In this document: in pieces, positions 1 through 57,500 of the stretch | Numbering within the stretch: position 1 is the first letter of the stretch | Layout: the number at the start of each line of letters is the position of its first letter | Origin: Balanoglossus misakiensis | Taxonomy: Eukaryota > Animalia > Hemichordata | Direction: 5' to 3' | Assembly: GCA_040954595.2 (NCBI GenBank) | Contig: CM082595.2 | Span: 4,077,943 to 4,141,942, forward strand | Length of the DNA: 64,000 bases | Made by a program: the position numbers and the translations under genes | The notes under the pieces: model-generated | What the model was told of the DNA's origin: nothing | Database searches by the model: none | What the model saw: only the letters and a program-made list of their open reading frames with translations

Positions 1-2990
1 CACACAGCCACCTACAACACTCCATGAAACGACCACTGGGGGTACAACATCTGCAAAAACTACAACATCGCCTACAACTTCAGGTGCAACAACACAAGTT
101 GCTACAAGTGACGTTGTGACCACTGTAGCCGACACAACTATTGGTAAAACAACTGCAAAAACCACACAGCCACCTACAACACTCCATGAAACGACCACCG
201 GGGGTACAACATCTGCAAAAACTACAACATCGCCTACAACTTCAGGTGCAACAACACAAGTTGCTACAAGTGACGTTGTGACCACTGCAGCCGACACAAC
301 CATTGGTAAAACTACTGCAAAAACCACACAGCCACCTACAACACTCCATGAAACGACCACTGGGGGTACAACATCTGCAAAAACTACAACATCGCCTACA
401 ACTTCAGGTGCAACAACACAAGTTGCTACAAGTGACGTTGTGACCACTGTAGCCGACACAACTATTGGTAAAACAACTGCAAAAACCACACAGCCACCTA
501 CAACACTCCATGAAACGACCACTGGGGGTACAACATCTGCAAAAACTACAACATCGCCTACAACTTCAGGTGCAACAACACAAGTTGCTACAAGTGACGT
601 TGTGACCACTGCAGCCGACACAACTATTGGTAAAACAACTGCAAAAACCACACAGCCACCTACAACACTCCATGAAACGACCACTGGGGGTACAACATCT
701 GCAAAAACTACAACATCGCCTACAACTTCAGGTGCAACAACACAAGTTGCTACAAGTGACGTTGTGACCACTGCAGCCGACACAACTATTGGTAAAACAA
801 CTGCAAAAACCACACAGCCACCTACAACACTCCATGAAACGACCACTGGGGGTACAACATCTGCAAAAACTACAACATCGCCTACAACTTCAGGTGCAAC
901 AACACAAGTTGCTACAAGTGACGTTGTGACCACTGTAGCCGACACAACTATTGGTAAAACAACTGCAAAAACCACACAGCCACCTACAACACTCCATGAA
1001 ACGACCACTGGGGGTACAACATCTGCAAAAACTACAACATCGCCTACAACTTCAGGTGCAACAACACAAGTTGCTACAAGTGACGTTGTGACCACTGTAG
1101 CCGACACAACTATTGGTAAAACAACTGCAAAAACCACACAGCCACCTACAACACTCCATGAAACGACCACTGGCGGTACAACATCTGCAAAAACTACAAC
1201 ATCGCCTACAACTTCAGGTGCAACAACACAAGTTGCTACAAGTGACGTTGTGACCACTGTAGCCGACACAACTATTGGTAAAACAACTGCAAAAACCACA
1301 CAGCCACCTACAACACTCCATGAAACGACCACTGGCGGTACAACATCTGCAAAAACTACAACATCGCCTACAACTTCAGGTGCAACAACACAAGTTGCTA
1401 CAAGTGACGTTGTGACCACTGTAGCCGACACAACTATTGGTAAAACTACTGCAAAAACCACACAGCCACCTACAACACTCCATGAAACGACCACTGGGGG
1501 TACAACATCTGCAAAAACTACAACATCGCCTACAACTTCAGGTGCAACAACACAAGTTGCTACAAGTGACGTTGTGACCACTGTAGCCGACACAACCATT
1601 GGTAAAACTACTGCAAAAACCACACAGCCACCTACAACACTCCATGAAACGACCACTGGGGGTACAACATCTGCAAAAACTACAACATCGCCTACAACTT
1701 CAGGTGCAACAACACAAGTTGCTACAAGTGACGTTGTGACCACTGTAGCCGACACAACTATTGGTAAAACAACTGCAAAAACCACACAGCCACCTACAAC
1801 ACTCCATGAAACGACCACTGGGGGTACAACATCTGCAAAAACTACAACATCGCCTACAACTTCAGGTGCAACAACACAAGTTGCTACAAGTGACGTTGTG
1901 ACCACTGTAGCCGACACAACTATTGGTAAAACAACTGCAAAAACCACACAGCCACCTACAACACTCCATGAAACGACCACTGGGGGTACAACATCTGCAA
2001 AAACTACAACATCGCCTACAACTTCAGGTGCAACAACACAAGTTGCTACAAGTGACGTTGTGACCACTGTAGCCGACACAACTATTGGTAAAACAACTGC
2101 AAAAACCACACAGCCACCTACAACACTCCATGAAACGACCACTGGGGGTACAACATCTGCAAAAACTACAACATCGCCTACAACTTCAGGTGCAACAACA
2201 CAAGTTGCTACAAGTGACGTTGTGACCACTGTAGCCGACACAACCATTGGTAAAACAACTGCAAAAACCACACAGCCACCTACAACACTCCATGAAACGA
2301 CCACTGGGGGTACAACATCTGCAAAAACTACAACATCGCCTACAACTTCAGGTGCAACAACACAAGTTGCTACAAGTGACGTTGTGACCACTGTAGCCGA
2401 CACAACTATTGGTAAAACAACTGCAAAAACCACACAGCCACCTACAACACTCCATGAAACGACCACTGGGGGTACAACATCTGCAAAAACTACAACATCG
2501 CCTACAACTTCAGGTGCAACAACACAAGTTGCTACAAGTGACGTTGTGACCACTGTAGCCGACACAACTATTGGTAAAACAACTGCAAAAACCACACAGC
2601 CACCTACAACACTCCATGAAACGACCACTGGGGGTACAACATCTGCAAAAACTACAACATCGCCTACAACTTCAGGTGCAACAACACAAGTTGCTACAAG
2701 TGACGTTGTGACCACTGTAGCCGACACAACTATTGGTAAAACAACTGCAAAAACCACACAGCCACCTACAACACTCCATGAAACGACCACTGGGGGTACA
2801 ACATCTGCAAAAACTACAACATCGCCTACAACTTCAGGTGCAACAACACAAGTTGCTACAAGTGACGTTGTGACCACTGCAGCCGACACAACAATTGGTA
2901 AAACAACTGCAAAAACCACACAGCCACCTACAACACTCCATGAAACGACCACTGGGGGTACAACATCTGCAAAATTTACAACATCGCCTA
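1..2990 (+). repeat. Coding tandem repeat, 162-bp (54-aa) unit, about 18 near-identical copies within the window
   Basis: Unit TTVADTTIGKTTAKTTQPPTTLHETTTGGTTSAKTTTSPTTSGATTQVATSDVV; the sequence at 1 recurs at 1621 (10 x 162). Confidence 0.97.
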
Positions 2991-5900
2991 AAACTACAGG
3001 TGCAACAACTCAATGTACTACAACAAACCCAGAAGTGTCCACTGAAGGTGCTTCGTCTGCTATAACTACATCAGGACCTACAAGTGCAGGTTCCACAACA
3101 CAATGTACTAAAAGTCCGGTTGTTACTGCTGCAGCTGACACAACCATTGATACGACAGCTGCACAAACTGCACAGCCATCTACAATAAGTCCAGAAGTGT
3201 CCACTGAAGGTGCTTCATCTGCTATAACTACAGCAGAACCTTCAACTGAAGCTGCCACGACACAAACCATTACAGGTCCGGCTGTGGCCACTTCAGATGG
3301 TACAACCATTCAGCTTGATATAACAGCCCAGAGCACAACAAAGGAAAAAGTCACAACAGCTGCTGGCACTACCAGGAAAACTACTGCATCACCTACAACT
3401 GTGGCTGATCAAACAAGTAACATAGTCACAACAGCTCAGAAAGAAACTACTACGGCTGGCACGACAAGTAAAACAACGGTGGCTGGCACAACAAAGGAAA
3501 AAGTCACAACAGCTGCTGGCACTACCAGGAAAACTACAGCAGCACCCACTACAGTGGCTGATAAAACAAGTAAAATAGCCACAACAACTCAGAAAGAAAC
3601 TACTACGGCTGGCACGACAAGTAAAACAACGGTGGCTGGCACAACAAAGGAAAAAGTCACAACAGCTGCTGGCACTACCAGGAAAACTACAGCAGCACCC
3701 ACTACAGTGGCTGATAAAACAAGTAAAATAGCCACAACAACTCAGAAAGAAACTACTACGGCTGGCACGACAAGTAAAACAACGGTGGCTGGCACAACAA
3801 AGGAAAAAGTCACAACAGCTGCTGGCACTACCAGGAAAACTACAGCAGCACCCACTACAGTGGCTGATAAAACAAGTAAAATAGCCACAACAACTCAGAA
3901 AGAAACTACTACGGCTGGCACGACAAGTAAAACAACGGTGGCTGGCACAACAAAGGAAAAAGTCACAACAGCTGCTGGCACTACCAGGAAAACTACAGCA
4001 GCACCCACTACAGTGGCTGATAAAACAAGTAAAATAGCCACAACAACTCAGAAAGAAACTACTATGGCTGGCACGACAAGTAAAACAACGGTGGCTGGCA
4101 CAACAAAGGAAAAAGTCACAACAGCTGCTGGCACTACCAGGAAAACTACAGCAGCACCCACTACAGTGGCTGATAAAACAAGTAAAATAGCCACAACAAC
4201 TCAGAAAGAAACTACTACGGCTGGCACGACAAGTAAAACAACGGTGGCTGGCACAACAAAGGAAAAAGTCACAACAGCTGCTGGCACTACCAGGAAAACT
4301 ACAGCAGCACCCACTACAGTGGCTGATAAAACAAGTAAAATAGCCACAACAACTCAGAAAGAAACTACTACGGCTGGCACGACAAGTAAAACAACGGTGG
4401 CTGGCACAACAAAGGAAAAAGTCACAACAGCTGCTGGCACTACCAGGAAAACTACAGCAGCACCCACTACAGTGGCTGAGAAAACGACTCAAATAGTCAC
4501 AACAACTAAAAAAACAACCCAAAAGACAACGACAGAACATACCACACAGCAAAGCACGACCACGGTAAAGACAACTTCCGACAGGGCCACAACAAGGGCT
4601 GCAACAACCGTAACTGAATGCAAAGAGCAAGACTTCATTTGTCTGGTACATATAATAAGTCGACGATTCAAATTGACATTCCTAATTAAGGGCAAAGTTT
4701 GGGACGACAGACTTGCGGATGGTGATACGTGCTTCTACAAATCCACAGCTGACAATATAGGGAAAGCAGTAAGTAACGTGATTCACTATTCACAAGTAAT
4801 TTTACCAGTAACAGTATGTACAATTGCGTACGTATTAATGTATGAGGAAGTGTCTTATTCAATTTTATGAAATTCATATAAACGTCCTTCTTGAAACATA
4901 TTGCAAGCATGGACATCTACTGCAAATTACGCCATAAAATTATGACGTCATAAAATTATAAAACACTTATAATACAGCAAGATATGAGCAAAGCTGCACA
5001 ATATGTGTAATACACATCGATGACTGATTAAATACACATAAGTACAAGGCTGGGATAAATAAGCACGAGACACAAGGGACACCCAATGTGGGTGCTTTTC
5101 CAAGTGATAATGTCCCACATTATGTGAAGATTAATAGCTGGATGCAGAAGTAAACTGTTTCCTAGTGTAAGTGTGATGACACTGAAAATTTCTAACTTTT
5201 CAATGCATACCTCTTTCAGCTTATAACCGTGTTTGATTATGGAAGTCTTAGGGGATTCATTGCATGCTTCTACGTCAACAAATTCACGTAAGTACCATCT
5301 GATATGAAATTACAGATTCTTCAAGCAGTAAAGTATTATATGGCAGTACTTTCACAAGCAAAGCAAATATCGACATTTGCATACGTATTCGTTGAAATTA
5401 CGACAGAGTTATTTGAAGATTGATCACAGAGTTACTTAAAGATCTTATGCAAGGAGTGACAAGTTATAAATATTTACCATGTATTTGCTCTGTGTTCCTT
5501 TTAGGGAAACGACTCGCCAGAGGAGGCAGGCTATACTTGAAGACGATTATACAGGCCCGCTTATACAGGTCGAAGTAGAAATACCTATACCATTGAACGA
5601 AACAGAGATTACCTATATAGACGTCCAAGAAGAATTTATTGCAGGCGTGGAAAATACAAATGCCTTCTATAACTACACTGATGGGCAGGAAGAAGTCGTT
5701 CTTAACAGCACGGTGGTCGAGGACATAGGTACGTTGGATGATGCAATCGTGGGAAGGTTAAGAGTGACATTTTGTGAAATGGTAACCCGTGAAAACGCAC
5801 GAGGACAATATATGGAACGACACTGAACCCAGACGAGTATATCATCAATGCTGTGTGCAGTGACTGGTCCCCCCCAGACATGATCCAGTAGCAAAGTTCT

Positions 5901-7281
5901 ATTATTGATTCGTTTTTGCCAAATGTATCCAAGCTGAATTCTTTTGGAGAGGTGAATTGTTTACATGTTGGTCCTATCATTAGCTGAAATCAGAATATAA
6001 ATATACATACATGTACGAGCATAAATTCAAAGTCGAAATGTTTCTCTTATTTTGTGGAACAGGAATCGCTACGTTGGCTCCAACAACTCCGGACACAACA
6101 ACAGGTAAGAATACCTAGTATACATGTATTGTATATAAAAGACTTGTTGCCTATTTCTTGCTACGTATTATGGTTACGCAAATATCATACTACTTTTAAA
6201 ACGAGAAATAGACGTTTTAATCTTTCAGGTACCGATTTTCATTTCTCTCACTCAGTCATTGTTCCATATGCTTAATGTGCACTAGTGTAGTTATTATATA
6301 TCTCTTCATTGCAGAGAGTTCCAGACAGTTGGTTATTTTGGCGGCAACACTTGGAACTACGGCGTTTATCTTGCTGATAGCTCTGTGCATATTCTGCTAC
6401 GCTTTCTGTCGAGCGATGAGGCGACAGCGACAGAGGAAGGAGCGCAGATACCTAACGCCCGCGGACAGAGACATGCCCTACACGGTGACAAGACCGCTGG
6501 GTCTCGAGCGCCCTCAGAACGATTGGGGCTTCAACTCGGACGTGGAATCCGTCAGCGACGCCAGCGTGAGCAACGGTGAATCCACTATAAAGATGGACAA
6601 CCGCATGCGCCATCTTGCGAAGGTTATGAGTGCGGCTCCCGGAAACTATGTGAGTGAACCATATCCTATTATCAGTCGGTGACTTTCGCTTAGAGTGTGT
6701 TTTAGTCAATTGAAATGTTTTTCTGCCGAAGATAGTCTTCGGTTGTAATCATTTCCTTTCACTCATCAAGCAATACGCAGTATGTCCACACCTGGCTACA
6801 ACTGTGGTAGTCCTAAGCTTCTGGTTCGCTCACGATGAACGTACCCATGTTTGCCATTCCTGTGGGCACCTCAAGTTTGACATTAATTCGTAATCTTCAG
6901 CAGTACGAAAATCACCTTATACACATAGTTCTTCATTTGTAGTTGACATGCCTCTATTCACTTCCAGGAACACATGCGGGCAAAACCACCAAGGCTTGAA
7001 TATGGTCAACCTTACGAATCAATGTATGGAGCTGGAGCTGATCATGGCTTCATGAGACCATACGTTGCAACTGGCTCTGAGGTAATGTGAGAACTGCTTG
7101 TATTCTGCAAGAACACTTTGTTCTCAATGTCTTATCTGGATCTGACCTCAAATGTATTTCTCTATCAAAGGATAAAGCTGGTAAGAATTGATGCGAGTCT
7201 GATTTTCATTTGTCAGATTCAGAATGTTGGTTTACAATCCTTGCATGTTTTTTACAGGCATCAGCGAAATACTCGGACTGA
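1..7281 (+). CDS. Membrane-tethered Thr-rich mucin with SEA-like domain, TM helix and cytoplasmic tail (5' part lies outside the window)
   Basis: Open frame from the window start to a GT donor after 4768. Further phase-consistent exons at about 5220-5287, 5505-5728, 6064-6103, 6315-6649 (TM: LVILAATLGTTAFILLIALCIFCYAFC then RAMRRQRQRK), ~6968-7081 and 7258-7281 (ASAKYSD*). SEA-like segment FKLTFLIKGKVWDDRLADGDTCFYKSTADNIGKALITVF...YVNKFT...LIQVEVEI. Confidence 0.85.
3335..4480 (+). repeat. Coding tandem repeat, 153-bp (51-aa) unit, about 7.5 copies
   Basis: Unit TTKEKVTTAAGTTRKTTAAPTTVADKTSKIATTTQKETTTAGTTSKTTVAG; period 153 (3481 to 3634). Confidence 0.95.
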
Positions 7282-10058: not shown

Positions 10059-13000
10059 ATGAAGATAATTTGTTTTTTTCTGATAGCTTTGAGTCTCAAA
10101 GGCGTTCAAGGTAAGAGTCATACCCGTATTAATGGTTCGATGCAAAATTGACGTTTTGGTGATGACATTCAGAAACTAACTCTGACCGTGTATACAGCAG
10201 ACGCTTTTATCTATCTGCAAATGACATCTGCAAAATTCATCTGTTAAAACATATTATACAACAGAGTTGTGTTGGAATGCTTTGATTCCAGTCATGCTTT
10301 TGTCCAGGTTATCTTGCACGACTGGTACCTAATGTCAATCCGCTACATATTGTAGGTACTATGTCTGGCCAAAATACATTTCCCAGGTTAAAGACAGGCT
10401 CATCCAAGAATGCAAACTACACATAATTCTTTCAAATTTCGATTTCGGTAGGATTAGAGAACCTTGGATGCTGGGGAGACACAGCGATCAGGGCCATACC
10501 GACCTTGGAAGGCCAAGATGCCAGACTAGATGGCGCATACTGGACAAGAAGTGACCCGATAAATAAGTGCAAGGCAGCTGCCGAGTCTCGGGGATTCACA
10601 ATCTTTGCTGTGCAGAACGGAGGATGGTGCGCTTCCAGCGCAGATGCCGAACACACGTACCAAAAGTATGGTGGATCCGGGAACTGTGCAGGCGACGGTG
10701 AAGGAGGACCCTGGGCCAATGAAGTCTACAGAATAGGGGGTGCAGAAGAGCCGGGTAATAAGTTTGTGTTGTTCACTATTATAGTAGACTTACATGGTGA
10801 AAAGAGGGCGTCTAACTTGATTGGTAAACCTTTACTGTGTATTTTTAGAAACCCAATTGACGGACCTGGGATGCTGGAAAGACACGGTGTTCAGAGCAAT
10901 ACCAACATTGGAAGGCCAAGATGCCAGACTAGATGGCGCGTACTGGACAAGAAGTGACCCAATAAATAAGTGCAGGGCAGCCACTGAGTCTCGTGGATTC
11001 ACAATCTTTGCTGTGCAGAACGGAGGATGGTGCGCTTCCAGCGCAGATGCCGAACACACCTACCAAAAGTATGGTGGATCCGGGAACTGTGCAGGCGACG
11101 GTGAAGGAGGACCCTGGGCCAATCAGGTCTACAGAATAGGGGGTGCAGAAGAGCCGGGTAATAAGTTTGTGTTGTTCACTATTATAGTAGACTTACACTA
11201 TCAAAAGGGCGTCTAACTTGATTGGTAAACCTTGACTGTGCATTTTAGAAACCCAATTGACGGACCTGGGATGCTGGAAGGACACAGTGTTCAGAGCGAT
11301 ACCAACATTGGAAGGTCAGGACGCCAGATTAGATGGTGCCTACTGGACCAGAAGCGATCCTATCAGCAAATGTAAGGCCGCCGCCGAATCTCGTGGATTC
11401 ACAATCTTTGCCGTGCAGAACGGAGGATGGTGTGCGTCTAGTGCCGATGCTGAAAGTACATATCAGAGATATGGTGGGGCCTCTAACTGTGGATCTGACG
11501 GTGAAGGAGGTGCCTGGGCCAACCACGTCTACAGAATAGTCGAAACTGGTAAGACTATTTGGCGTAATTTATAGTAATTTATTCATTAGTCTTGGAGTCT
11601 TGTCTCACAGACGGAATTTCACAACTAAATGTAAATTGATATTCCCCTCTCATTCAGCTCCACCAACGACCGAACCACCACCACCACCACCTCCTCCAAC
11701 CACCGAACCACCACCTCCTCCAACGACCGAACCACCACCGCCTCCAACCACGGCAGCACCACCACCACCACCACCGCCGCCACCACCACCACCAACGACA
11801 GAAGCTCCAGTTGTTGGTAATAACATTATGTCATTTTGCTGTACAGCTTTGGTGCATTTCTTCTCATTTACCTTTTACCTAGCATTGATAGCGTTGTTGT
11901 TAGGTCAAATACTCAGTCTTTGGGCTTGGACTTCAATAGTGTACTACCATGCTCCCAAAGAGGTCCATTAATAACGTTAATTATATTTATGTATGGAGCT
12001 TTACCATCATCAAAATGATGTGCACAGAACCAATGTATTTTTAGCCAGTCACAGATGTTCACTTGCGCCACCGTGTATGGGCATATACATGTGTAGACTA
12101 GAGGTTTATGATTATATCAAAATACTGCATAATAATTAATCAAATACCTGTTCCCTCCAAACTGCAACTTGTGGCATGACAGAACCTGAGAGTAAGTATA
12201 CTTGGACAGTTGTTTTTGCATGGGATTGAGATGGGACATAAGGTTGCTTACAGAACTTGATTACCTACTTTGGGCCACACAGCTGGAAAGGGTTAACAGA
12301 TAGCATTGGATAATATAATCTTTAGTTGTCTTTTTGCATGCTGTCAGCGAGTCATGTATTAACGCTGTACTAACTTTTTTTACTTTTATTTTTTTATTTA
12401 GCTACACACATCCCAACGTTACCACGTGAGTATTAGTCCTGCTTGTATTATAACATTCCTGATAAAAGTCCATAATTTGAGTGTTGATAAGAACTGCGCC
12501 GTATGAATAGTCAAGTAACTTTTGCCATTTTTTTTTCATCCGGGCTGTTAGCCTGCGAGTATCCTGTACCACTTAGAAATGTAGCCCAGGGCAAATCGAC
12601 ATCCCAGACGTCGGATAAGCCCAGACAAAACGGAAGCTCAGAAAAGGCAGTGGACGGAAACAAGAACAGCAACCTGAAAACTGGAAAGTCTTGTACCTGG
12701 ACTGACAGGGAATGGCAGCCACGATGGGAAGTGGATTTGGGAGAGTCACATGATATATACGAGGTTGTGATAACCAACCGACAGGATTGCTGCAGTGAGT
12801 ATATACCAGTTTCTTTTTAAAGTCTAACTTGCTTGCCGGTTTGTCCGCTTACTTTCTTACTTCACCTTAAAATAGGACGCGGCTAGAACTATAATAATAC
12901 TGTACCATTATTTCATTCGCAGCTCATCGTCTAAAGAATGCTGAGATTCGTGTCGGTGACAGTAGCAATTTCGCCAACAACCCCGTTTGTGGCATGAGGG

Positions 13001-13143
13001 TTCTTGGCAAAATGGCCAGAGATGAGACAATTACCATCAGATGCGGTTGCGAGACTCCAATGCGAGGGCGCCACGTGTCCATTCAACTCGTTGACAGGGA
13101 GCAGATGATGCACCTCTGCGAAGTTGAAGTCATGGCCGGTTAA
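10059..13143 (+). CDS. Secreted chimeric lectin: signal peptide + 3 WSC-like domains + Pro/Thr linker + F-type lectin (fucolectin/FTP) domain
   Basis: Exons 10059-10110 (MKIICFFLIALSLKGVQG), 10452-10754, 10849-11157, 11249-11548 (LGCWxD...C...A...GFTIFAVQNGGWC...C...GGPWANxVY), 11658-11816 (poly-Pro), 12402-12425, 12552-12794 and 12923-13143 (NVAQGKSTSQ...KAVDGN...CTWT...WEVDLG...TNRQDCCTHRLKNAEIRVG...LCEVEV*). Phases are consistent; AATAAA near 13280. Confidence 0.88.
10452..11548 (+). repeat. Tandem exon+intron triplication (~400-bp period) encoding the WSC-like domains
   Basis: Exons and the introns 10755-10848 and 11158-11248 are nearly identical at nucleotide level. Confidence 0.92.
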
Positions 13144-13621
13144 CAAATTGATGTCCGAGAGATACCCAGCAATTGTCTTACATGTGTCTAACATTTCTGA
13201 GTCATCAATAAGTACCATGCATGAAAATTGTCTGGTGACACTGTGGTTCGGAGATGTAACACTTAAATAACGTATTGCGAATAAAACACACATAACTGAT
13301 GAAACATTGTGTATCTAACTTTAAAAACTGGTATTTTCTCAAGTCTTCCTGTATATATAAATATGTCCCGGGCTAATCTTGAAGTGAATGCCACTTCACC
13401 CTCAACAGCAACCCTCTCCTTTGCCAAGCCTGCATAGTATAATCTAACACACGTATCAAATTAAAGCAAGCAAATGTACCTTATACTAAAATTTTGAACA
13501 TTCAACATATGTCAATTGACTGACAGCGTACGTGAGTCTCACTCACATGCATCTGGGATATTCAAAAGGATATGTTGGTTGGAGATCAGAACAGAAAAGT
13601 CAAGTGCGCTTAATATGGATA

Positions 13622-15472
13622 CTAATATTTATGCATAATATTAAACATGCTAGTCGGAACGCACAGATCCTTCAGATAGACGAGAGGCTTTATGCGGACT
13701 TCTCTGACGCGCTGGAGAGATTTTTGGATGTCTTCTTCTGGGATGTGGCTTATCATGTTATTCTCCGGCAGGAAGAAATTGGGCACGTTGCCTCGCTCCA
13801 GAAAATGTATCAACAGATCGAAGAAGCCCATGAATAGATCCCCGTTGTTGGTGTCTTGCCACTGATCGGCCGGAGTGTGTTCGCACACCCAAAACATTGT
13901 TGTCTTCATGTGGTAAGATGACAGCGTTTGAGGCTCCTGAAAGAGATTTTTGCACATTGAAATTAAAATACTCAGTGAACAGGATACCAAGTAGTCACAA
14001 TAACACTTTTCCAGGATATAAGATGCTATAAAATGTTCATGTACGACACTTACCTTGAGATGGATTCGCCAAATCTTCTTCATCAAAAGGTAGAACGTCC
14101 GCTGAGCTTCTGTGAAGGTGTTAGCTAGAGTCCTTTCAGCCAGAGAAAATGACAATCGCCATTGTAAACATTCGTCCCCCTCTACACCTGGGTACGACTT
14201 TGGGACGACATGGCAGCCAGCTGTGGTTATAGCACGAACGACGTCGCTGGTTGGCCAGTGGCGATCACGTGTTACCCAATGCGCGGCGATGGACGGCCAT
14301 TCATTGCAGGCCAGTGCCAACGCACCATCTGCCGTCTGTTCAAACTCGGCCGTGGTGGCGCCTGCTCCAACTGCAAGTGTAAAAAAGAAATTGATAGAGA
14401 TGTCAACGTTTAGTCTCGAACCTCTCTGAGCAGTTCAGAACTATGTGAATTCGAGTTGTATTTGCTCGCATCCCAAGTAATATTGACAGGACGATACCTT
14501 GTTCCGATGTTGCAGTGTAGTGCACACTTAGTGTTTGGACAGGACCCTGCTGCACCAGTTCCACTCTGCCGCGGAAGCCCCCGTGTTTTTCGTAGTTGCT
14601 GTCGATTTCTGCTTGGACGGCAGGAAGTCGCGAGCGGACGTACACTTCTTGGATTTTCAGTAGCTTGGACCTGGACAGATAGAGACGGGCGGGCCCACTT
14701 CCTTCGCCAGATGGGACGGCTACGCACAGTTCTTTTATGAATTCTTTGGAGTAGGCCTGTTTCTTGTCTGGCCGTACTTGTACGCGCACGTAGCCCGGGT
14801 GGGGAGTGCTTATCCACTGAAGTGGGGGAACGTCTCTGGACGGTTCAGATAGTCCTACCTCTTCAAGCTCGCTGATCAGTGATTCCAAACCCTCTACCGT
14901 CTGTTCACCACCATCTCTCGTTGGATCCTTGCTCTCCCCACGGAAACCACTCACATCCGTACCCTCTTCACCAACGGAACTCTCATCAGAGGTCACCGGA
15001 GCTTCGGATACCATGGATACGGGTATCATCAAATCCATCTCGTCATTCAGATATCGTTCAGTTTGTGCGCTGTGATCCGTGATGGCAAAGCCCTCGCTGG
15101 TGCTACCAGTCCACACGTACTCGTCCACATTGGCCAGGTTATTGAAGCACGGCTTCAGGACATACTGAAAGATGTCTGCCAGTCGACCACTTAACGTATA
15201 CGGCTCTCTTTTAGCAAAGTTGCTACGCTCGAATAAAGGCAGTGTTTTGCCGTGCATGGTGACGCAAGTATTTATGATAAACGCGGGCTCTTTCGACACG
15301 GGATCTATTCTCATCTGAGGGTTGCTTAACCACTGAAAGTAACCAAGTTGCTCGTCGACCAGGAAGAGAAAGTCTGCCTCATTTGCATACCCCTGAGTGT
15401 AACGCTTCTTAATTTCAATCGATGGCTCCATCTGGTCAGAAATCTCAGCTTGATGCTGGAGAGCTTGTTTGC
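13622..15472 (-). CDS. cGAS-like receptor / Mab-21 NTase domain (last three exons of the gene above)
   Basis: Family motifs in order: WTGSTSEG, NDEMDLMIP, HPGYVRV, QGP, ADGALAL.C.EWPSIA..W..R.R.WP, GCHVVPK, WRLSFSLAERTL, LSSYHMKTTMFWVCE, VPNFFLPENNM. Confidence 0.92.
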
Positions 15473-18400
15473 CTGAGAAGACCATAAGTGCAAAAGGTCA
15501 ACAGAGCAGATCTGAAGCAAACAACTTCGTGAAGTCTTATGACGTCAACACAGTGTATTCTTTTGGATTTGTGAAGGTCAGTTTTCTGTTTCTTAAAATG
15601 CGTCGGCTAGGAAACCACGAGAATCCAGTTAACTATCAGGTACCATTATTTACGTATCCTAAGTTAGTATCAATATATCGATGGCCAACTTCACACCGTT
15701 TATGAACTTTATCGGACATGTGCAACTAATTTATCAGAAAGAATACTCTAATCCACCTACCAACATCACCTGATCGCAGAAACTTTGTATCATCGTGATA
15801 TTTTGATTCGTCGATAAAATCTCGTCCAAATGGTTTTCTGAGTCTCGTGAATTGCTCTGTACCCTTCACTCCTGTCGTAAACTTGAAACTTTCTAGAAAT
15901 ATAAAAGATCAGTTCCTTATATATGTATAAAGCATATTCGAAAGAAACAGCACAAAATTATGTTCATTATGACTTTCCATTGCAACAAAGCAACTGCTCA
16001 AGTCGTCGTTGTGCGTAAAGCCATAATTTAATCTTTTTGTGCTTCCCTCGTTTTGCCTCTTATGAATACGGGTGATGTAAATTTGCATGTACGACGGACC
16101 ATAACAGCATTGTCACATTATGCACGCCATGCGGTCATAAGTGAGTCGCACAACATGGAGTGCAATAAACCGATATCAAAGCAATTAGGTCGGCACCTTA
16201 GAAATCATCTCTATAGGAACTGACACACAGGGGATATATTACCAATGGGTTCCAAGAAGTCTGCTCCTTCGTCGGATGTAATATTCTGCGGAAGCTCGAT
16301 GTGTGAAGGCTCATCGACGATAGATACTTGTATACATTTACCAGTAACAGCAACCAATGGATATACATCTGTGGAAAGAAGAGATTGTACGTGGTCAATG
16401 TTTCAATTGTCATGTTTACAACCCACACGGCACTGCAATAAATTATAAAACCAAGATTAACGTATTACCTTCCGGAATGTTCCGAAATGCTATCCCTTTG
16501 GATACACCATTATAGTAATAATGGAGGGTCTTGTCTCCGAGTCGAACAATACCAATACGATCACCCTCCTTGATTTTATCCAAATCAAGATCGTACTGAC
16601 CTCCAGTGAATTTGAAATCTTTGAAAAACTCAGATTTCCTACAAAACAAAGAAAATTTTCTGTAATCATTCAGAAGCATTGCCTTAACATGAAATCAGGT
16701 ATTCACAGTTTTTCCTTTCCTTTAAAATCTGGACAACGTGTGAACCATGTTCCCATTTATGAGTGTGTTAATTATATTTATCTGGCAAAATGTTATATTG
16801 TTAACGTACCTCAGAAACCAAAATCCAGCACCTTCCCCATAGCCTTGACCGTAGTATACTACATCATCAGGGAACTCTTTGTAGACAGTGACACCTAGTC
16901 AGAGTTTAAAGAAATACAATGTGTGCTATATGTGGATGTAGTCATACCAAAGACGTTTTAGTGACACCAATCAATATTCAGTAAGATTTAAAGTAAAGAA
17001 ATAAGTCAGTCATTTTATTGGGTCTATGTAAGCAGTAGGTCAGCCAGCCAGTCAGTCAGTTCGCTGTTAAGTAAGTTTATGTAGTTAGTTAGTTAGTTAG
17101 CCAGCTGGACAGTTGAAAGTTATTGACTTGTATTTTGGTTGGTTGGTTTGTTGGTCAAGTGGATGGCTGGATAGTTTTCAATCACTTCCTTACATACCAA
17201 ATTCTAGCGACTCTCTCAACCTCTCAGTCTCCATTTTGTCAATCTGTATTTCGAAAAGTTGATTTGTTGGGAGAGGTTTGTCGGTGATGAAGACTGCTTT
17301 GTCGTCAGCCCAAACGCTCTCCCAATCTTTTCTGTACGCCACACGTCCGTCATTCTTGACCCCGGCACGTTTGCCTGCTGGATTAAACCGCATTCCTAGG
17401 TACCCCGTGTCTTCCTGTTAAACATAATCATCAACAACATTTACAACATTTAAGCCTACGTCAAGAAGCTTCATCATTTGAAGAGTTCTCTAGCTGTTGT
17501 TAAATTCTAAGCCTTGTAATCTGCAGTGGTGAAATTGAATTTTGTATGTATCACGTATCCAAATGCATCTGCGAGATGTACTACTGTAAATAGACAGCAC
17601 TTGGTAAGTATGTACAAGTGGCTTCTTTTCGTGATGTTAGCGAAGATCTACTTACGGGCTTAGACGTGACTTCCGCAGCACTGCTAGACGATTCTGAGCT
17701 TTCAATCTTCGGAGGCCATTGAAGTTTAGGTTTCTCAGCGTCGGAGCTTTCCTGAGTAATTCCAAAGTATCCGGCATTCACATTTGTCACTGCTTTCAGC
17801 TTTTAATATGATAGAGAGAGAAAGAGAGAGAGAGAGAGAGGAACATCATTACAAAAGGCACTGCTAAATACGTTGCATTGACATGGCATGGCTAGCGTAA
17901 TTATTATGACTGCTAATTGCCTTGTGAAAGCACAGTACGAATTATGTCATCATAAACTTTAAAGATAAATAAATAACTACCTTTTCCTTCAGGTTGTCAA
18001 AATGCTGCTGACATATATTCACTAAGAACTTCACGAGCCCAGCCAGCATAACCCGCGGCAGATGCGAATACGAGACTTGCGTCTGTGCAGTTCATAAGGA
18101 GGGTGTTCAAAGCTCCTAAGCCTTCCCATCGTTCCTTGTCCATATACGCATCGTCTTCTCCGTTACCATAGAAATCACGGGCTCGATTCATCAGGACGTC
18201 TGGAGACAATCATAAATTTTAATCCTGTAATATTACGAATCTCGCCAAATTTCACAATTGATCTAAATGAATTTGTTTTCACGTATGGCGAATCTGTCTG
18301 TCTGTCATCTATCAGCTAAGTTCTATAGCACGTTGTCACTTAGATCATGCGACGAGTATAATTTGTGCTACTAATATTAGCAGCATACCTGCGTTGCGTT

Positions 18401-20561
18401 AAATGCCATAACACAGAAATACTAACCCAGGCCACCGTCTGTGTCCACTATTCGTTCAGCAACAGCGGCCCTGTCTTTTCTCCTGGTGTCGCAAAGTGCC
18501 TTAGAAACAGCCGATATGACTTCTTTGGCCTCGTCTGGTTTCATGTCTGCGAGACTAGAAACTAGACTCGAGACAAACATGCAGGTTTCTGCCACGCTCT
18601 GGTCACCACCGGCTGCAAGTGTGTCAGATGTAAAGAGTATATACAAGGAGACTTTTACAGTGGAGACGATGGGTATATAGCTATTGTTTATAATTTTGCT
18701 GTGTGCATGTGTTTCATACACATGGAATCATTATCGATACGAATTTCACGATGCATATAATGAGGTCAACTAGATTGTAAGTCCGTCATTTGATTCACTG
18801 AGAGAGCTCTTTAAGCGACGAATTTCTGACATGTCATGTGATTGGGTAATATTTTTCTACAACTCACTGCTTCCCGATCGTTCGTCCGAAGCTTTGTTTT
18901 CTTTTGGCGTCTGGTCATCATCTTTGCTGCAGAGATCGAATTTATTCAGAAGTCGACGAACAGCATCATGGTCCGGTCCTTCGCATCGCTCCAACACGTC
19001 AAACAAGACAGGCACTGCATGCGTCATTACCTTTAGCATGTGACAATACAGAGATAACGTTTGTCCAAGTTATGAACAACCACGAAGTTATCAAGTTATT
19101 GTGCTGTGTCTATCGCAAATTGTCTTGCATATCCAAGGAAAATACAACATTATTATCTTATGAAGAACGCCTCATGTCTGCCGCCTTATCATTAATACAA
19201 CAAAACTGTAGAACAACGTGCAATGAATGTTCTTGATTCGACTCACATTGTCTCTGTTCTGTGGATGAAGCGACAGGTTCTCCAGGGCTTCAGCAAGTTC
19301 TCCTATGGAAAAAGACTGTGGCCCTTCTACTAAGCACTTCTGAAGCCATGTAACAAGTTCCTTTATTACACCTGTCATGCACGATACACGTGATGTGGTT
19401 ATGGTAATGTATTAACTTTTACTTTGTATACAGATATACCACACAAAGTTTCTCAAGCATTTTTAAATAGACACCAAGACATTCGGCTATGCCAGAGACC
19501 TGTCCCAAGGTGTCATCCTGCACACAGACTTCTTGCACCAACGGAAAAATACTTACCGCTTTCATCTTTAATAAGTTCCACTTCTTCGGCAGGGTCGATC
19601 ACATAGCTCAATGTCAGACAAGCCGCCAAACGACGTCCTGGGTCGGCTGACCCCTTGTAAAAATGTAGAAGACGTTTCGTTTCCGGGTTGTCAAAATACA
19701 CGCGGTTAGTCTTCGATTTGACAAGATTGTGCAATATAAACAAACACGTGCCAACCAAGTCCCATCTCCTCTGTCAAAGAAAAAAAAAGAATAACATGGC
19801 TTTCAATCAGAAACCTGTTAACGAAAACGAAATTCATTACTGATTTGTAAGGTTAGACATAGGATGTCAAGTGACTGTATGGGAACCGGACTCCATCATG
19901 CAATGCAAGTACCTTCATTTCCTGTCCGGGCGATCGCGACACCCATTGCGTCACTTCCGCAATAACAGTTGATTCGTCCTCTCGTTTACGGTTAGCATTC
20001 TGGGAACCACGCAGCACATCTGAAATGACAGGATGAAGCGTCATGTGCATAACATACTGGTCTTGGTCTTCTGCTGCAAGTTGAGACGCCCCCTTACACC
20101 GTTCAGGCTTGTATTGTTATTTAGTTAAAATGTAATCTACTGCTGTCGATGTGACCCAGTGAGCATGATAGAAAAACGCAGCAGACCAAAGGTCAAACGA
20201 GGCAACGGGTAACACGTACCAAAGCAAACCGAAAGCTGAATTAAATATTTAATTACTCCAATATATTGAAGGCAAACTTAGAAATTACTAACACACAAAA
20301 AGATATGAAGTAGTTGAAGTGACTGAAGTCTTTTTTTGGTTCTTGAGGACAGATATGTTTAAGCGGAATGATTTTGGTGGAATGCGGAAGTACATGAAAC
20401 CATTGAAACACTCGTTCGTGTACACATTATACAGAAGCATAAAAACTGTTCGGAAAATCGTGCTTTGCCGACACATGACATGTGAATCTGGATTGGTGTC
20501 CTCACAAAACATCATTGAGCTAGAATGGGGTTAGCTTACCTGCTATCTGTACAGCAGCCAT
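13622..20561 (-). CDS. ARM-like repeats + Neuralized (NHR) domain + cGAS-like/Mab-21 nucleotidyltransferase (cGLR); 16 exons, apparent 1-nt frameshift in exon 7
   Basis: Exons 20561-20540, 20073-19913, 19770-19557, 19371-19247, 19030-18868, 18612-18427, 18199-17981, 17799-17656, 17414-17198, 16894-16810, 16638-16469, 16368-16243, 15892-15761, 15472-14498, 14370-14054, 13936-13622; all GT-AG. Summed length is 3571 nt (3n+1). Confidence 0.7.
16243..17414 (-). CDS. Neuralized homology repeat (NHR/NEUZ, SPRY-like) domain exons
   Basis: MRFNPAGKRAGVKNDGRVAYR...AVFITDKPLPTNQLFEIQIDK...SLEFGVT...FWFLR...DLDKIKEGDRIGIVRLGDKTLHYYYNGVSKGIAFRNIPEDVYPLVAVTGKCIQVSIV, spread over four phase-consistent exons. 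Confidence 0.8.
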
Positions 20562-21510
20562 TCTACCAAACGCTTAAAATCTGAATCAAATATTTGACGC
20601 AGCCGAGAGGGCGACTGGAGTGTGATCACCTGACTATATGTTGTCACCTGACTGTGTTGACACAAGTTTGCGCCTCTGACCTATATCACTTCGCCCATAC
20701 ACCGTATTTTAAAATCGGTAGACATCATTACTAAATGTTGTTTATGATGTAGAATTTTCCATACATTTTCACTACGGGGCAATGCTAATATTATCTTAAT
20801 AAATATATTACTTTCCGAGGGCAAGAATATCTCAATAGCGAGGAGAAAAATAACACTTTCGACCAACATTGTACATTATAATAGATAGATATTTATTGAA
20901 GAAATTATTGCATTATTTGTTTACATTTGAGACATAACATTGGCACTATACATACAACGTTTGTTCTGGACTAATGTACAAATTCGTATACTTAAATGAT
21001 ATACGGAGATTGCTATTCTACTGATAGATACATTGCTGATCAGTTCTTTAAATGTCTTATACGTGTGTGACACAACAAACGTTAGATTTTTATGATGTAT
21101 GAAAGCTTTGAACTTTGACCGCAGGAGACATATGACATCATGTGCGGTTTATCTCAAACCATGAAGCAGTATCGTAAATGATATTTGCAGTGTTGTGGCG
21201 TTCCGTTAAAAAAATCACGTGACCGCCAGACTGGGAGGATCATATTCGCTTTAGTGGCATATATTTGATACAAATATTCCGTTTACTTCTGTACTTCTTA
21301 TGAAGGTTGTTTATTATTTCGCGTCTGTCTTGAATGTCATACTACAACTTTGGCAAAAGGTGGTGAAATAATAAGTTTTTTGTTTTGAGAAAGTTTGTGA
21401 GATTGCGTAGATTATTAATTATACCATCGGCTGTTTTCCATTATTGTGCATTTTTCTGTATTCGTTTTGCATTTTTGTCTTTCTTCTGACGATGCTGTCC
21501 CCATTCCCAG

Positions 21511-54547: not shown

Positions 54548-57500
54548 CTATTGGACAGAGCAGCCCGACCCTAATTGTTTATTGGCTCTTGTTCTCAGTC
54601 TTTTGAGTTCGTTGTGCTTCTCATCAATTCTCAGTCCGAAATCGCAAATCGTCAGGGCTTCTGGGAACTTTCTCTTGTCGTAGGTGTGCCGCGCGTAGCC
54701 GAGGAAGACCCGGGCGAGATTCGCCCTCCCCGGCCGGGAAGTGATGAGGCCGAGGGCCACCGAAGAGTTGATGTCCAGGGCCCGGATGTAGTCGTTGCAC
54801 GCGCGGTGCTCCCTCTCGTGCAGCAGATACACGTGACCCCGGGCGCAGAAGTCGCTGGCCAGGGGCGCGCTTTTCTCCAGCTTGAGAACTTCTGTCAGAT
54901 CCGTCTCGGCCCTGTCGTACTTCTCTAGCCGGGTGAGACACTTGGCTCGCTTTCGGAGGAGGTCCGCCCGCTCGCCGTCACTCGCCATCACCGCCAGGCT
55001 GTAGAAATTCAGCGCTTCGCGGTGTTTGCTGTGATTGGTCAGGGATTCGGCCTGGTCAGATGCATGCTGGAATATAAATGAGATGAAATGAGATGCTTAT
55101 GCGTAAGACACGAAATAAAATAGACCATTTTCTGAGCTTCACGAGATCCTGACAGATCCCGTGTGGCTGGGCAGTTTATATGGAAGGACATTCTCATATG
55201 ACACGTGACAAAAACATGGCCAACTTTGAAAGATTACATCCGTCATCTTTCATTGTTTGCCAACAACATGCTAAACGTGTGTATGTGTATTCGCATTTCA
55301 AATCGATAATGGTGGTTATGGAGGCATTTTACCATGTAATTTGTCAGCCATTTTCTTACCTTGACAAGGTCATCCCTCTGTTCCACGTCCAGAACTTTTA
55401 ACACAAAATGTAGTCCCCGCAGGTCATCCTCGGCCAGTTTACCCAGATGTAGGGCGGCAAATGTCATGTTACCCAGTTTGGTGTGTATCAATGCGCACCT
55501 GGCTATGGCCGTGGGGTCCTTAGGAGAAATGTCTGTGACGCGGTTCAAGTGAGTCAACGCCGCGCTGTAATTACCTGAAGGGGAAATTTGACGGACAAAT
55601 TTGGTAAGTTTCGCCCGATATAACATCAGCACTGGCAGAAGATTGTGTGTGCAGAGTGTAAAACCCACTGACTTTCAAGGTCAAAATAAGATGTTCGTTG
55701 AATGTTGGGTTAGAAATTACTGTTTCAATTATGAATATTTCTTCACCTTCAACAATGAGGGTGTCCGCATACAAACTATGCCAGGTGGAATTGTCCTCGT
55801 CAAGTGCCACCAACAACTGTCCAATCAGCTTCGCATACGCAGCCATGTGAACGTTGTAGCGAGACACGCCCTGGGATAGCAGCTCGACGGCGTGCATGTG
55901 CAGCCAGTAGATGACGAGCAGGCGTGGTTGCTGTGGCAACGACGCGATGTGGTTCTTGGTCTCCTTGAAGTTGGTTGAAAGCGCGAGTATGTAGTCGGAT
56001 ACTGATTCCTGGAAACAAATAAACACATTTTAATGATTTGTTGCGAGTTTGGCAACAGGGTACAGGTGTTTGCCATGATAAAGTAAATTTTGTAAATATG
56101 CGCAGGGCTAAGAAACCATAAATACCTTTCGGTGGTTCAGCGTGAGATGCATACACGCCCTGCCGCAGAGGGCCTCCACGACATCCGGGTCACTGTTCAG
56201 CACGGTGGTAAAATCGGTGATGGCCGCCAACTGGTTTCCCAGGTGAGCGTGGCATTCTGCGCGGGCCAGCAACGACTTTGATGCTTTAACCCCTGCAATA
56301 AATGAAAAAAAAAACATGCATGAAAATTTCTTCCGTCTTAGAAAAAATACTGTCTTACACGTGACCGTGCATGATTGTCGTAAAAGTCAGCCATACGCGG
56401 GCCTAACATGGTCATTGTGCCAACAGTGTTCGCCTGTTGCATCGTGGACAGTGGAAGAACTTCTAATTGTCTATGCCTGTACTTATGGAGACAGTAGTAC
56501 CACAGACCCGCAGTTGCCCCCATGGCTCACGGACAGGGATTTTTGCATGCGAAGAACATGACATTATTGGCCTGAATATTGTTCATCGCCGTGGCCAATT
56601 AACGAGCGGACGTCGATTCTTTTTGACGAGCCAACTCTACTGGTGGATACACCATATGGCATAAAACACGTCTCCCTGTAACTGAACGGATTGTTCGCCC
56701 GAATATGTATTTTTACACTCCCCTATTACCTCCGTGGTATGGTGGCAAGTGTGATTGGACAAGTCATTGAAATATGGGTAATTATCCCACCCGCAAGTGG
56801 ATGAGTCAGGAAATTATCAGAAAAACGTAGTGGTCGAAACTAGTCTGTTTTGCCATAGACAGTACTGTCTATGGTTTTGCTACGGTCCCTCGTGGTTTTG
56901 CCCACGCTTTTAGTTTTGTATGGAATTCTTGAAGGGTAGCAGAATATTAGCGCGGTTTTATTCTTTTGACAGGAAGACAATTTTCGCTGTTGGTGACCGT
57001 CACACTCATCCAGTCAAGTCGACCAGGGAGGTCGCAGAGTCACATTTTTGTGCCAGAAACCCAACCGCGCTACTAAAAAGGACGGTCACAAAGAGAGAAA
57101 TGGTATTAATCTCTCACCTGTTGCTGCTATGGAAACCGTAAAGCAGTCAATAGCGTCCCTGATTGTCTGCGCGGTTCTCTCGCCTTCCTTCAGCAACTGC
57201 ACAGCGTAGCGGTGGGCCTCCTCCTGGACGGCTACGCGGTCGCCGAAGTCAATCTCGGCGAAGGCGGTGGCCAGTCCCGTCGGGCCGCGGAGACGCAGCA
57301 CATCCAGGTAGTCCTGCACGATAGAATGAATGTGCGTTATCGGCTTCCGTTTGCTGAGCACCGCCAAGATTTTACCGATGCACGTGGTACAGGAGCAGAG
57401 GTTTGAAATGGGGATAGGACGGAAAGTGAGGGCCATGTTATCGAAAAGCTCAAGACAGGGCGATTGTCAGCCGTCGCCCGGAGTTTTGGTTTCTCGGTCA

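What the first reader, a model, noticed from the sequence alone, without database searches (positions are those of the whole stretch)
13622..20561. cGAS-like receptor fused to ARM-like repeats and a Neuralized (NHR) domain
Seen: 16 splice-consistent exons join helical repeats (FILHNL...AACLTLSYV...ELAEALENLSLHPQNRD; LLMNCTDAS), a complete NHR domain and a C-terminal Mab-21/cGAS-fold NTase. The GS motif (WTGSTSEG) and three acidic residues (E-M-D, then the D of ADGAL) are in place. Established: animal cGLRs are pattern-recognition enzymes that make cyclic dinucleotides for STING, and NHR and ARM domains are protein-binding scaffolds. Inference: this may be a cGLR gated by a protein ligand or guard module rather than by nucleic acid. 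I do not recognise ARM-NHR-cGLR as a characterised architecture.
Basis: partly seen in the sequence, partly recalled or inferred. Interest (0 to 1): 0.8.

Follow-up and report, generated by a model that had tools for sequence, protein, structure and literature searches.

The report
Armadillo–Neuralized cGAS-like receptor, broken copy
This animal gene joins a predicted armadillo-like region, a Neuralized domain and a cGAS-like enzyme domain; unbroken relatives in acorn worms and feather stars would likely be immune alarm enzymes switched on by a protein rather than by DNA or RNA, but this copy carries a four-base frameshift that likely disables it.

Summary
Sixteen GT-AG exons run on the minus strand, with Pfam Neuralized, Mab-21 and Mab-21_C hits and the catalytic residues in place. 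A 4-nt tandem duplication in exon 7 (18040-18047) shifts the frame to a stop at codon 340. It is in DNA contigs of two runs of one sample, while ~90%-alike copies there lack it. Full-length ARM-like/NHR/cGLR relatives are annotated in Ptychodera, Saccoglossus and two crinoids; the window sits beside the Ptychodera copies. A Ptychodera model matches MB21D2 (Z 17.4) and NEURL4's NHR (Z 11.3); the N-terminus resembles ARM repeats only weakly (Z up to 11.8). Li et al. 2023 already list five members as cGLRs with SPRY/NHR domains in supplementary tables, without an ARM annotation or an assay. An acidic enzyme domain (pI 5.4-6.0) and a weakly supported ARM-NTase contact (0.50 versus 0.00) favour gating by a protein, which is untested. 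Verdict: a catalogued but undescribed cGLR variant, here as a likely null allele or young pseudogene.

The parts
20540..20561 (-). exon 1, ATG at 20561 (least certain exon)
   Evidence: GT donor and phase fit; no tblastn match to P0001
19913..20019 (-). exon 2, N-terminal leader
   Evidence: AG/GT and phase fit; no tblastn match
19557..19770 (-). exon 3, ARM-like module 1
   Evidence: 66% to P0001 41-113, E 1.6e-24
19247..19371 (-). exon 4, ARM-like module 1
   Evidence: 63% to P0001 113-155
18868..19030 (-). exon 5, end of module 1 and acidic linker
   Evidence: splice sites and phase; no tblastn row
18427..18612 (-). exon 6, ARM-like module 2
   Evidence: 46% to P0001 207-281
17981..18199 (-). 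exon 7, ARM-like module 2; carries the frameshift
   Evidence: P0001 273-344 matches in two frames
18040..18047 (-). 4-nt tandem duplication (GCTG twice) that shifts the frame
   Evidence: present in X1 record 1 and X2 record 8, absent from ~90%-alike contigs X1 record 4 and X2 record 11
17997..17999 (-). premature TGA, codon 340, with 9 exon junctions downstream
17656..17799 (-). exon 8, Ser/Glu-rich linker; alternative acceptors at 17792 and 17789
   Evidence: its 3' junction is skipped exactly in an X3 contig
17198..17414 (-). exon 9, NHR domain, first part
   Evidence: Pfam Neuralized E 4.1e-6
16810..16894 (-). exon 10, NHR domain
   Evidence: tblastn match to P0001 467-506
16469..16638 (-). 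exon 11, NHR domain
   Evidence: Neuralized E 0.0018; 70% to P0001
16243..16368 (-). exon 12, end of NHR and linker
   Evidence: 61% to P0001 553-593
15761..15892 (-). exon 13, family-specific segment between NHR and NTase (a second same-phase donor lies nearby)
   Evidence: 64% to P0001 593-634; no Pfam hit; no Atlas hit for the P0001 equivalent
14498..15472 (-). exon 14, helical segment plus NTase lobe: WTGS, EMD, acidic insertion
   Evidence: 57% to P0001 640-966, E 2e-108; motif
14054..14370 (-). exon 15, third catalytic Asp (codon 14329-14327) and Mab-21 core
   Evidence: Pfam Mab-21 E 2.7e-12
13622..13936 (-). exon 16, Mab-21_C helix bundle, stop TAG
   Evidence: Pfam Mab-21_C E 9.3e-17; intron 15 skipped in X3 contigs, one with 0 differences

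Best explanation
This is a frameshifted, likely non-functional copy of a hemichordate and crinoid cGAS-like receptor whose unbroken relatives are predicted to make a cyclic dinucleotide for STING, likely when a protein ligand binds their ARM-like and NHR domains and releases an inferred brake on the enzyme. Shown: the exon structure, the NHR and Mab-21 domains, the catalytic residues, the frameshift, and the same architecture in relatives. Predicted: the cGLR fold, two ARM-like modules, and (weakly) a contact between the ARM-like region and the enzyme half. Inferred: enzyme activity, signalling to STING, the protein ligand, autoinhibition, and that the main transcript of this copy is degraded or yields a 339-residue ARM-only stub. 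The family appears to turn over by duplication and loss, and this copy looks recently broken because I found no other lesion in it.
For: Frameshift; carried by DNA contigs of two runs of one sample. Loose ends of two other copies in those runs carry a GT donor at the position of 17981, so that donor is the inherited one. Recent breakage: exons 8-16 are an open 826-codon frame with all three acids; 25 of 38 listed coding differences to other copies are synonymous against 22% expected (p 1e-8; only 40 of 374 differences were listed). Family: 11 of 13 hits carry NHR plus Mab-21; 13 of 183 held proteins match all three domain profiles, 10 of them by construction; 15 NTase rows form one clade (100*), with the window sister to three Ptychodera copies (95*, quick tree). 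Fold of P0001: MB21D2 Z 17.4, rmsd 4.3, 358 aligned; Sp-cGLR1 Z 16.5, rmsd 4.2, 329 aligned; NEURL4 NHR Z 11.3, rmsd 3.0, 156 aligned. Ligand: nucleic-acid-sensing cGLRs have pI above 8.5 (PMC9980059 passage); the window NTase region is 5.4 (6.0 without the acidic insert), and 0 of 13 homologue NTase regions reach 8.5. ARM versus linker+NTase of P0001: ipSAE 0.50, best of 3 controls 0.00, runs share at least 57% of contacts, partner pLDDT at least 82. The tool calls this weak: 5 of 78 solved pairs and all 4 passing mismatches (of 180) scored 0.60 or under. STING is present in these taxa: Saccoglossus 1 gene, Anneissia 3 (Table S5 rows).
Against: No activity, ligand or expression data exist in my calls for any member. 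Whole-domain pI is crude: without the acidic insert, 5 of 13 cores score 8.1-8.9. The full-length model has pTM 0.45, so the domain arrangement is not resolved. The closest fold is MB21D2, an orphan that responded to no tested PAMP. ARM identity is weak: no Foldseek match at E<=0.001 and Z values in the range the tool flags for helical repeats. The copy may not be null: skipping exon 7 with the acceptor at 17789 or 17792, or using cryptic donors, gives open frames of 1095-1155 codons, and a spliced contig identical to the window exists at the 3' end. Zygosity is unresolved, and all three runs are one sample that may be the assembly's source.
Confidence: 0.5

Rival explanations
1. The family senses nucleic acid like cGLR1 or cGAS; the ARM-like and NHR domains only localise it or recruit partners.
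For: dsRNA and dsDNA are the only defined cGLR ligands in PMC9980059 (passages). 5 of 13 insert-trimmed cores have pI 8.1-8.9. The ligand surface could be basic even if the average is not.
Against: Window core net charge is -8, pI 6.0; 8 of 13 trimmed cores are at pI 6.0-6.7. 12 of 13 full-length homologues have pI 4.9-6.3.
Confidence: 0.25
2. The family is a catalytically quiet or non-immune scaffold, like MAB21L1 or MiD49/51, that binds nucleotide but does not signal through STING.
For: MB21D2 and MAB21L1 are among the top three folds. The third Asp lies 168-224 residues after the second, outside the published 50-90.
Against: WTGSTSEGF and EMD are invariant in 12 of 12 aligned members, and the third Asp is kept in all 11 that reach it. 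Several copies and fragments per genome look like immune-gene turnover (inference).
Confidence: 0.13
3. This copy is still functional: splicing bypasses the duplication and gives an NHR-cGLR with a shortened second ARM-like module.
For: Ten donor/acceptor pairs and two exon-7-skipping routes give open frames. Downstream exons are intact, and spliced contigs exist for introns 8 and 15.
Against: Those donors are poor matches to the consensus seen at the other junctions, and they delete a helix conserved in relatives. Other copies keep the donor at the 17981 position.
Confidence: 0.12
4. There are two neighbouring genes, an ARM-like gene and an NHR-cGLR gene, wrongly joined.
For: No contig or 12 joins exons 1-7 to exon 8. 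Glandiceps has the parts as consecutive loci LOC144451303 and LOC144451302, and some Ptychodera and Anneissia models are partial.
Against: Single models with all three parts exist in four genera. The gap between exons 7 and 8 is a 181-nt GT-AG intron.
Confidence: 0.05

Closest known systems
Animal cGLRs of Li et al. 2023 (PMC9980059), entries XP_006812022.1, XP_002731347.1 (Saccoglossus) and XP_033124527.1, XP_033100664.1, XP_033118758.1 (Anneissia)
   Same: Same subfamily: LOC100370446 is P0004 (45% identical over exon 14); Table S2 gives the five a SPRY_NHR_like or SPRY domain plus, where looked up, Mab-21.
   Different: Table S2 has no ARM row, the assay table has no Saccoglossus or Anneissia protein, the section read names only TPR, ankyrin and multi-cGLR fusions, and the window copy is frameshifted.
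Human MB21D2 (PDB 7lt1)
   Same: Best sequence hit (E 1.7e-28) and best fold (Z 17.4, rmsd 4.3, 358 aligned); orphan ligand.
   Different: 17% identity in the structural alignment; the deposited 464-residue chain matches only the NTase half of the family profile.
Sp-cGLR1 (8gjy), Cv-cGLR1 (8gjw), Tribolium cGLR (7lt2), vertebrate cGAS
   Same: Same caged NTase fold (Z 14.5-16.5) and active-site motif order.
   Different: Nucleic-acid sensors are basic (pI above 8.5); this domain is acidic, has insertions between the catalytic strands, lacks the Cys/His zinc-thumb of cGAS (position recalled, not from a call), and carries ARM-like and NHR domains.
NEURL4 NHR repeats (2e63)
   Same: E 8.1e-18; Z 11.3; NEURL4 proteins are the best NHR-only hits.
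   Different: One NHR here against five to seven in those proteins; they lack the ARM-like region and the Mab-21 domain.

Membership tests
cGLR (criteria of Li et al. 2023) | h[QT]GS-X8-20-[DE]h[DE]h | tested here: met
   WTGS-X20-EMDL in the window and 13 of 13 homologues with the same spacing (criterion read)
cGLR (criteria of Li et al. 2023) | third acidic residue, h[DE]h, 50-90 residues later | tested here: inconclusive
   The Asp is present and on a predicted strand, but the spacing is 191 (168-224 in relatives), outside the stated range. The authors' curated list includes the orthologue with spacing 170. Triad geometry could not be measured because no coordinates are returned.
cGLR (criteria of Li et al. 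2023) | homology over both the NTase core and the C-terminal helix bundle | tested here: met
   Pfam Mab-21 and Mab-21_C above cut-off
cGLR (criteria of Li et al. 2023) | predicted structural homology to cGLR/CD-NTase | tested here: met
   Tested on relative P0001, not on the window's own product: MB21D2 Z 17.4, Sp-cGLR1 Z 16.5
functional cGLR gene (this copy) | uninterrupted reading frame from the start codon through the NTase | tested here: not met
   Stop at codon 340 with the inherited donor; open only through cryptic splicing
cGLR | ligand-dependent cyclic dinucleotide synthesis and STING activation | not testable with these tools
   Needs an enzyme assay
nucleic-acid-sensing cGLRs | pI above 8.5 | tested here: not met
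   Window NTase region 5.4, trimmed core 6.0; threshold from a passage of PMC9980059
nucleic-acid-sensing cGLRs | long basic ligand-binding surface on the model | not testable with these tools
   Model coordinates are not returned, so surface charge was not computed
NHR/Neuralized domain | PF07177 above gathering score and NHR fold | tested here: met
   Exon 9 alone 27.2 bits against 23.3; P0001 63 bits; Z 11.3 to 2e63
Armadillo-repeat superfamily | ARM profile hit or clear ARM solenoid fold | tested here: inconclusive
   No Pfam ARM hit above cut-off. All-helical model. Best Foldseek rows are mostly designed armadillo repeats at E 0.015-0.09; CTNNBL1 Z 11.8, rmsd 2.6, 114 aligned; beta-catenin Z 10.0; Atlas neighbours at 0.93-0.94 carry ARM-type families.

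The most novel reading that the evidence does not exclude
Hemichordates and crinoids share an ancient cGLR subfamily that works as a guard-type receptor: the ARM-like modules clamp the NTase shut, a pathogen protein or a modified host protein binding the ARM/NHR sensor releases it, and a cyclic dinucleotide activates STING. Truncated ARM or ARM-NHR paralogues, possibly including the stub from this frameshifted copy, act as decoys or trans-inhibitors. This would be a protein-activated animal cGLR with its sensor built into the same chain.
Probability: 0.3. Interest if true: 0.8.

Novelty: new variant of a known kind. Interest (0 to 1): 0.45.

Why it matters
The ligands of acidic cGLRs are an open question: Li et al. 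2023 propose unknown non-nucleic-acid activators (passages). This subfamily carries two candidate protein-binding modules on the same chain and is kept in hemichordates and crinoids. That makes a simple test possible: compare full-length, ARM-deleted and NTase-only proteins. Activation on deleting the ARM-like region would show autoinhibition in an animal cGLR, and the ARM/NHR part could be used as bait for the ligand. The value is capped because members are already in a published cGLR catalogue with their NHR domain, accessory-domain fusions of cGLRs are known, and the copy in this window is broken, so work should use an unbroken relative.

Tried and rejected
No whole genome is held for this window, so paralogue number, synteny and STING genes in this animal were not examined. 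The run search listed no holder on record as RNA; X3 has no contig on exon 7, which is no evidence either way. An assembly error as the cause of the frameshift was rejected as unlikely because two runs carry the duplication without gaps, though they are one sample. Contig depths could not settle whether the duplication-free copies are alleles or paralogues. Pfam on the ARM-like exons gave nothing useful (one B56 row at E 0.1). A word search with the N-terminal region alone returned only 3 Ptychodera proteins of 3299 candidates. The Atlas gave no usable hit for the segment between NHR and NTase. No sea urchin, sea star, sea cucumber, chordate or protostome member appeared among the named hits, but only 20 of the 144 new proteins were looked up by name, so the range is not settled. 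tblastn found no second copy in the window. The careful tree did not finish; the quick tree is quoted, without P0008 (truncated) and P0015 (WAGS motif not caught by my pattern). In one search my pattern picked a wrong third acid for the window; one search corrected it. Paper searches for a description: cGLR+neuralized 0; Mab-21+neuralized+nucleotidyltransferase 1, unrelated passages; cGAS+Mab21+hemichordate 0; armadillo+NHR+innate 1, cGLR+SPRY 1, all seen as listings only and none on this family by title or abstract start. Three look-ups in earlier findings returned nothing.
Full report
Gene model. The minus strand holds 16 exons from ATG 20561 to TAG 13622, and all 15 introns are GT-AG. tblastn with the closest relative, Ptychodera flava P0001, hits 12 of 16 exons in order at 46-76% identity; exons 1, 2, 5 and 8 rest on splice sites and phase. 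Pfam on single exons gives Neuralized on exon 9 (E 4.1e-6, above cut-off) and exon 11 (E 0.0018), Mab-21 on exon 15 (E 2.7e-12) and Mab-21_C on exon 16 (E 9.3e-17); 11 of 16 pieces had no hit or only a chance-level one. Run X3, listed as 'DNA?', has contigs that skip introns 8 (241 nt) and 15 (117 nt) exactly. One matches the window without a difference, the one across intron 8 differs at 9 of 240 letters. I read these as spliced RNA, since X1 and X2 do not show those joints. No contig links the ARM exons to exon 8 or the NHR exons to the NTase exons.

With the exon 7 donor at 17981 the exons total 3517 nt and translation stops at codon 340, with nine junctions downstream. P0001 aligns in frame -3 up to a GCTG tandem repeat at 18040-18047 and in frame -1 after it, 76% identical up to the donor. 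In both deep runs a contig carries the duplication without gaps (X1 record 1, 0 differences; X2 record 8, 3 differences). Other contigs, with 5 differences in 69 letters and 11 in 115, lack four bases there. So the lesion is in the animal's DNA and duplication-free copies coexist in the same sample. Whether they are alleles or paralogues is unresolved; a copy with a different intron 15 points to at least one paralogue. Exons 8-16 are open for 826 codons, and 25 of 38 listed coding differences to other copies are synonymous against 22% expected (40 of 374 differences were listed, 2 non-coding). The break is therefore likely recent. In-frame bypass is possible on paper: ten cryptic donor/acceptor pairs and two exon-skipping routes give 1095-1155 codons.

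The family. A search with exon 14 among longer proteins gave 13 hits of 2913 candidates, all from Ptychodera, Saccoglossus, Glandiceps, Anneissia and Antedon; 11 of 13 carry both Neuralized and Mab-21 (confirmed). A second search gave 14 such named proteins and four distant Mab-21 proteins among 18 hits. A profile search of 1.84 billion representatives added further full-length and partial members. Of 20 looked up, 14 were from Ptychodera, Saccoglossus, Glandiceps or Anneissia family loci and 6 were NEURL4 proteins. Of 183 held proteins, 13 match all three domain profiles, 10 of them by construction. Partial models (ARM only, ARM-NHR without NTase, NTase cut before the third Asp) are common, which fits turnover by duplication and loss, though some may be annotation splits. 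In a quick tree the 15 family NTase rows form one clade (100*), and the window is sister to three Ptychodera copies (95*). The animal is thus likely an acorn worm.

Structure. The AlphaFold2 model of P0001 (12-row alignment, mean pLDDT 64.6, pTM 0.45) has a helical N-terminus, a beta-rich NHR and a mixed NTase. It matches MB21D2 (Z 17.4, rmsd 4.3, 358 aligned), Sp-cGLR1 (16.5), MAB21L1 (16.1), cGAS (15.5) and the NEURL4 NHR (11.3) (Foldseek agrees on the NTase). The N-terminal region, folded from P0032, forms two helical modules split by a disordered linker. Foldseek gives no match at E<=0.001 but ranks designed armadillo repeats first. VIA-align gives CTNNBL1 Z 11.8 (rmsd 2.6, 114 aligned) and beta-catenin Z 10.0, values the tool warns may reflect a common helical arrangement. 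Atlas neighbours at 0.93-0.94 carry ARM-type families. 'ARM-like' is fair; 'ARM' is not proven.

Active site and ligand. The window has WTGS-X20-EMDL and a third Asp 191 residues on. WTGSTSEGF and EMD are invariant in 12 of 12 aligned relatives. The first spacing fits the published cGLR motif; the second exceeds the stated 50-90, yet the authors kept the orthologue with a spacing of 170. They report pI above 8.5 for nucleic-acid sensors and suggest that acidic cGLRs answer to other ligands. The window NTase region has pI 5.4, and 0 of 13 relatives reach 8.5. With the acidic insert removed, 8 of 13 stay at 6.0-6.7 and 5 of 13 rise to 8.1-8.9, so the argument is soft. A complex prediction of the P0001 ARM-like region with its linker plus NTase scored 0.50 against 0.00 for the best of 3 controls, with at least 57% shared contacts and partner pLDDT at least 82. 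The tool rates this weak support: only 5 of 78 solved pairs, and all 4 passing mismatches of 180, scored 0.60 or under.

Mechanism. Most likely the unbroken protein is a cytosolic cGLR held off by its ARM-like modules and switched on when a protein binds the ARM/NHR part, making a cyclic dinucleotide for STING, which these taxa encode (Table S5 rows). That ARM and NHR domains bind proteins is established knowledge, recalled and not from a call. Activity, ligand and autoinhibition are inferred. This copy most likely yields a degraded transcript or an ARM-only stub. I put about 0.9 on the architecture, 0.85 on the copy being broken in its main splice form, and 0.4-0.5 on protein gating.

Prior description. 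In PMC9980059 (preprint of Li et al. 2023; I read section 5, passages found by term, and matching rows of supplements 1-5) Table S1 lists the Saccoglossus orthologue and four more members. Table S2 gives them SPRY_NHR_like or SPRY domains (5 rows) and has no ARM row, and the assay table has no Saccoglossus or Anneissia protein. In PMC8195603 I saw four passages, none on this fusion. Nine paper searches found no description of the architecture. Subscription papers, the journal version of Li et al. and its supplements, and bioRxiv supplements were not searched and may bear on this.

Verdict. A real, conserved, catalogued but undescribed and unassayed cGLR variant; the window's copy is frameshifted. 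Novelty: new variant of a known kind. Interest 0.45.

Noticed in passing
window 10427-13143 (+): A convergent neighbour with three similar WSC-like exons, a proline-rich stretch and an F5/8 type C (galactose-binding-like) domain; its last ORF ends about 480 bp from the cGLR stop.
   Followed up: partly
window 1-6700 (+): A mucin-like gene: a 1622-codon Thr-rich tandem-repeat frame open at the window's 5' end, followed by a hydrophobic, probably transmembrane exon.
   Followed up: no
window 54548-61021 (-): A multi-exon TPR-repeat gene.
   Followed up: partly
window 15761-15892 and the start of exon 14 (P0001 575-690): A conserved family-specific segment between NHR and NTase, predicted as a beta hairpin plus helices, with no Pfam or Atlas match.
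   Followed up: partly
P0159 / P0014 / P0158 (Saccoglossus LOC100377009): The older model XP_002731347.1 adds a CRAL-TRIO domain, which Li et al. Table S2 records; the newer annotation has a 1091-aa protein and a separate 310-aa tocopherol-transfer-like protein, so that fusion is probably a mis-join.
   Followed up: partly
P0012 (Antedon mediterranea): Two fibronectin type III domains sit between NHR and NTase in this member.
   Followed up: no
P0008, P0019, P0161, P0024, P0045: Family models lacking all or part of the NTase (ARM-NHR, ARM only, or NTase cut before the third Asp); possible decoys, pseudogenes or annotation splits.
   Followed up: no
run X3 on window 13400-20800: Listed as 'DNA?' but its contigs skip two introns exactly, so it is probably an RNA library.
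   Followed up: partly
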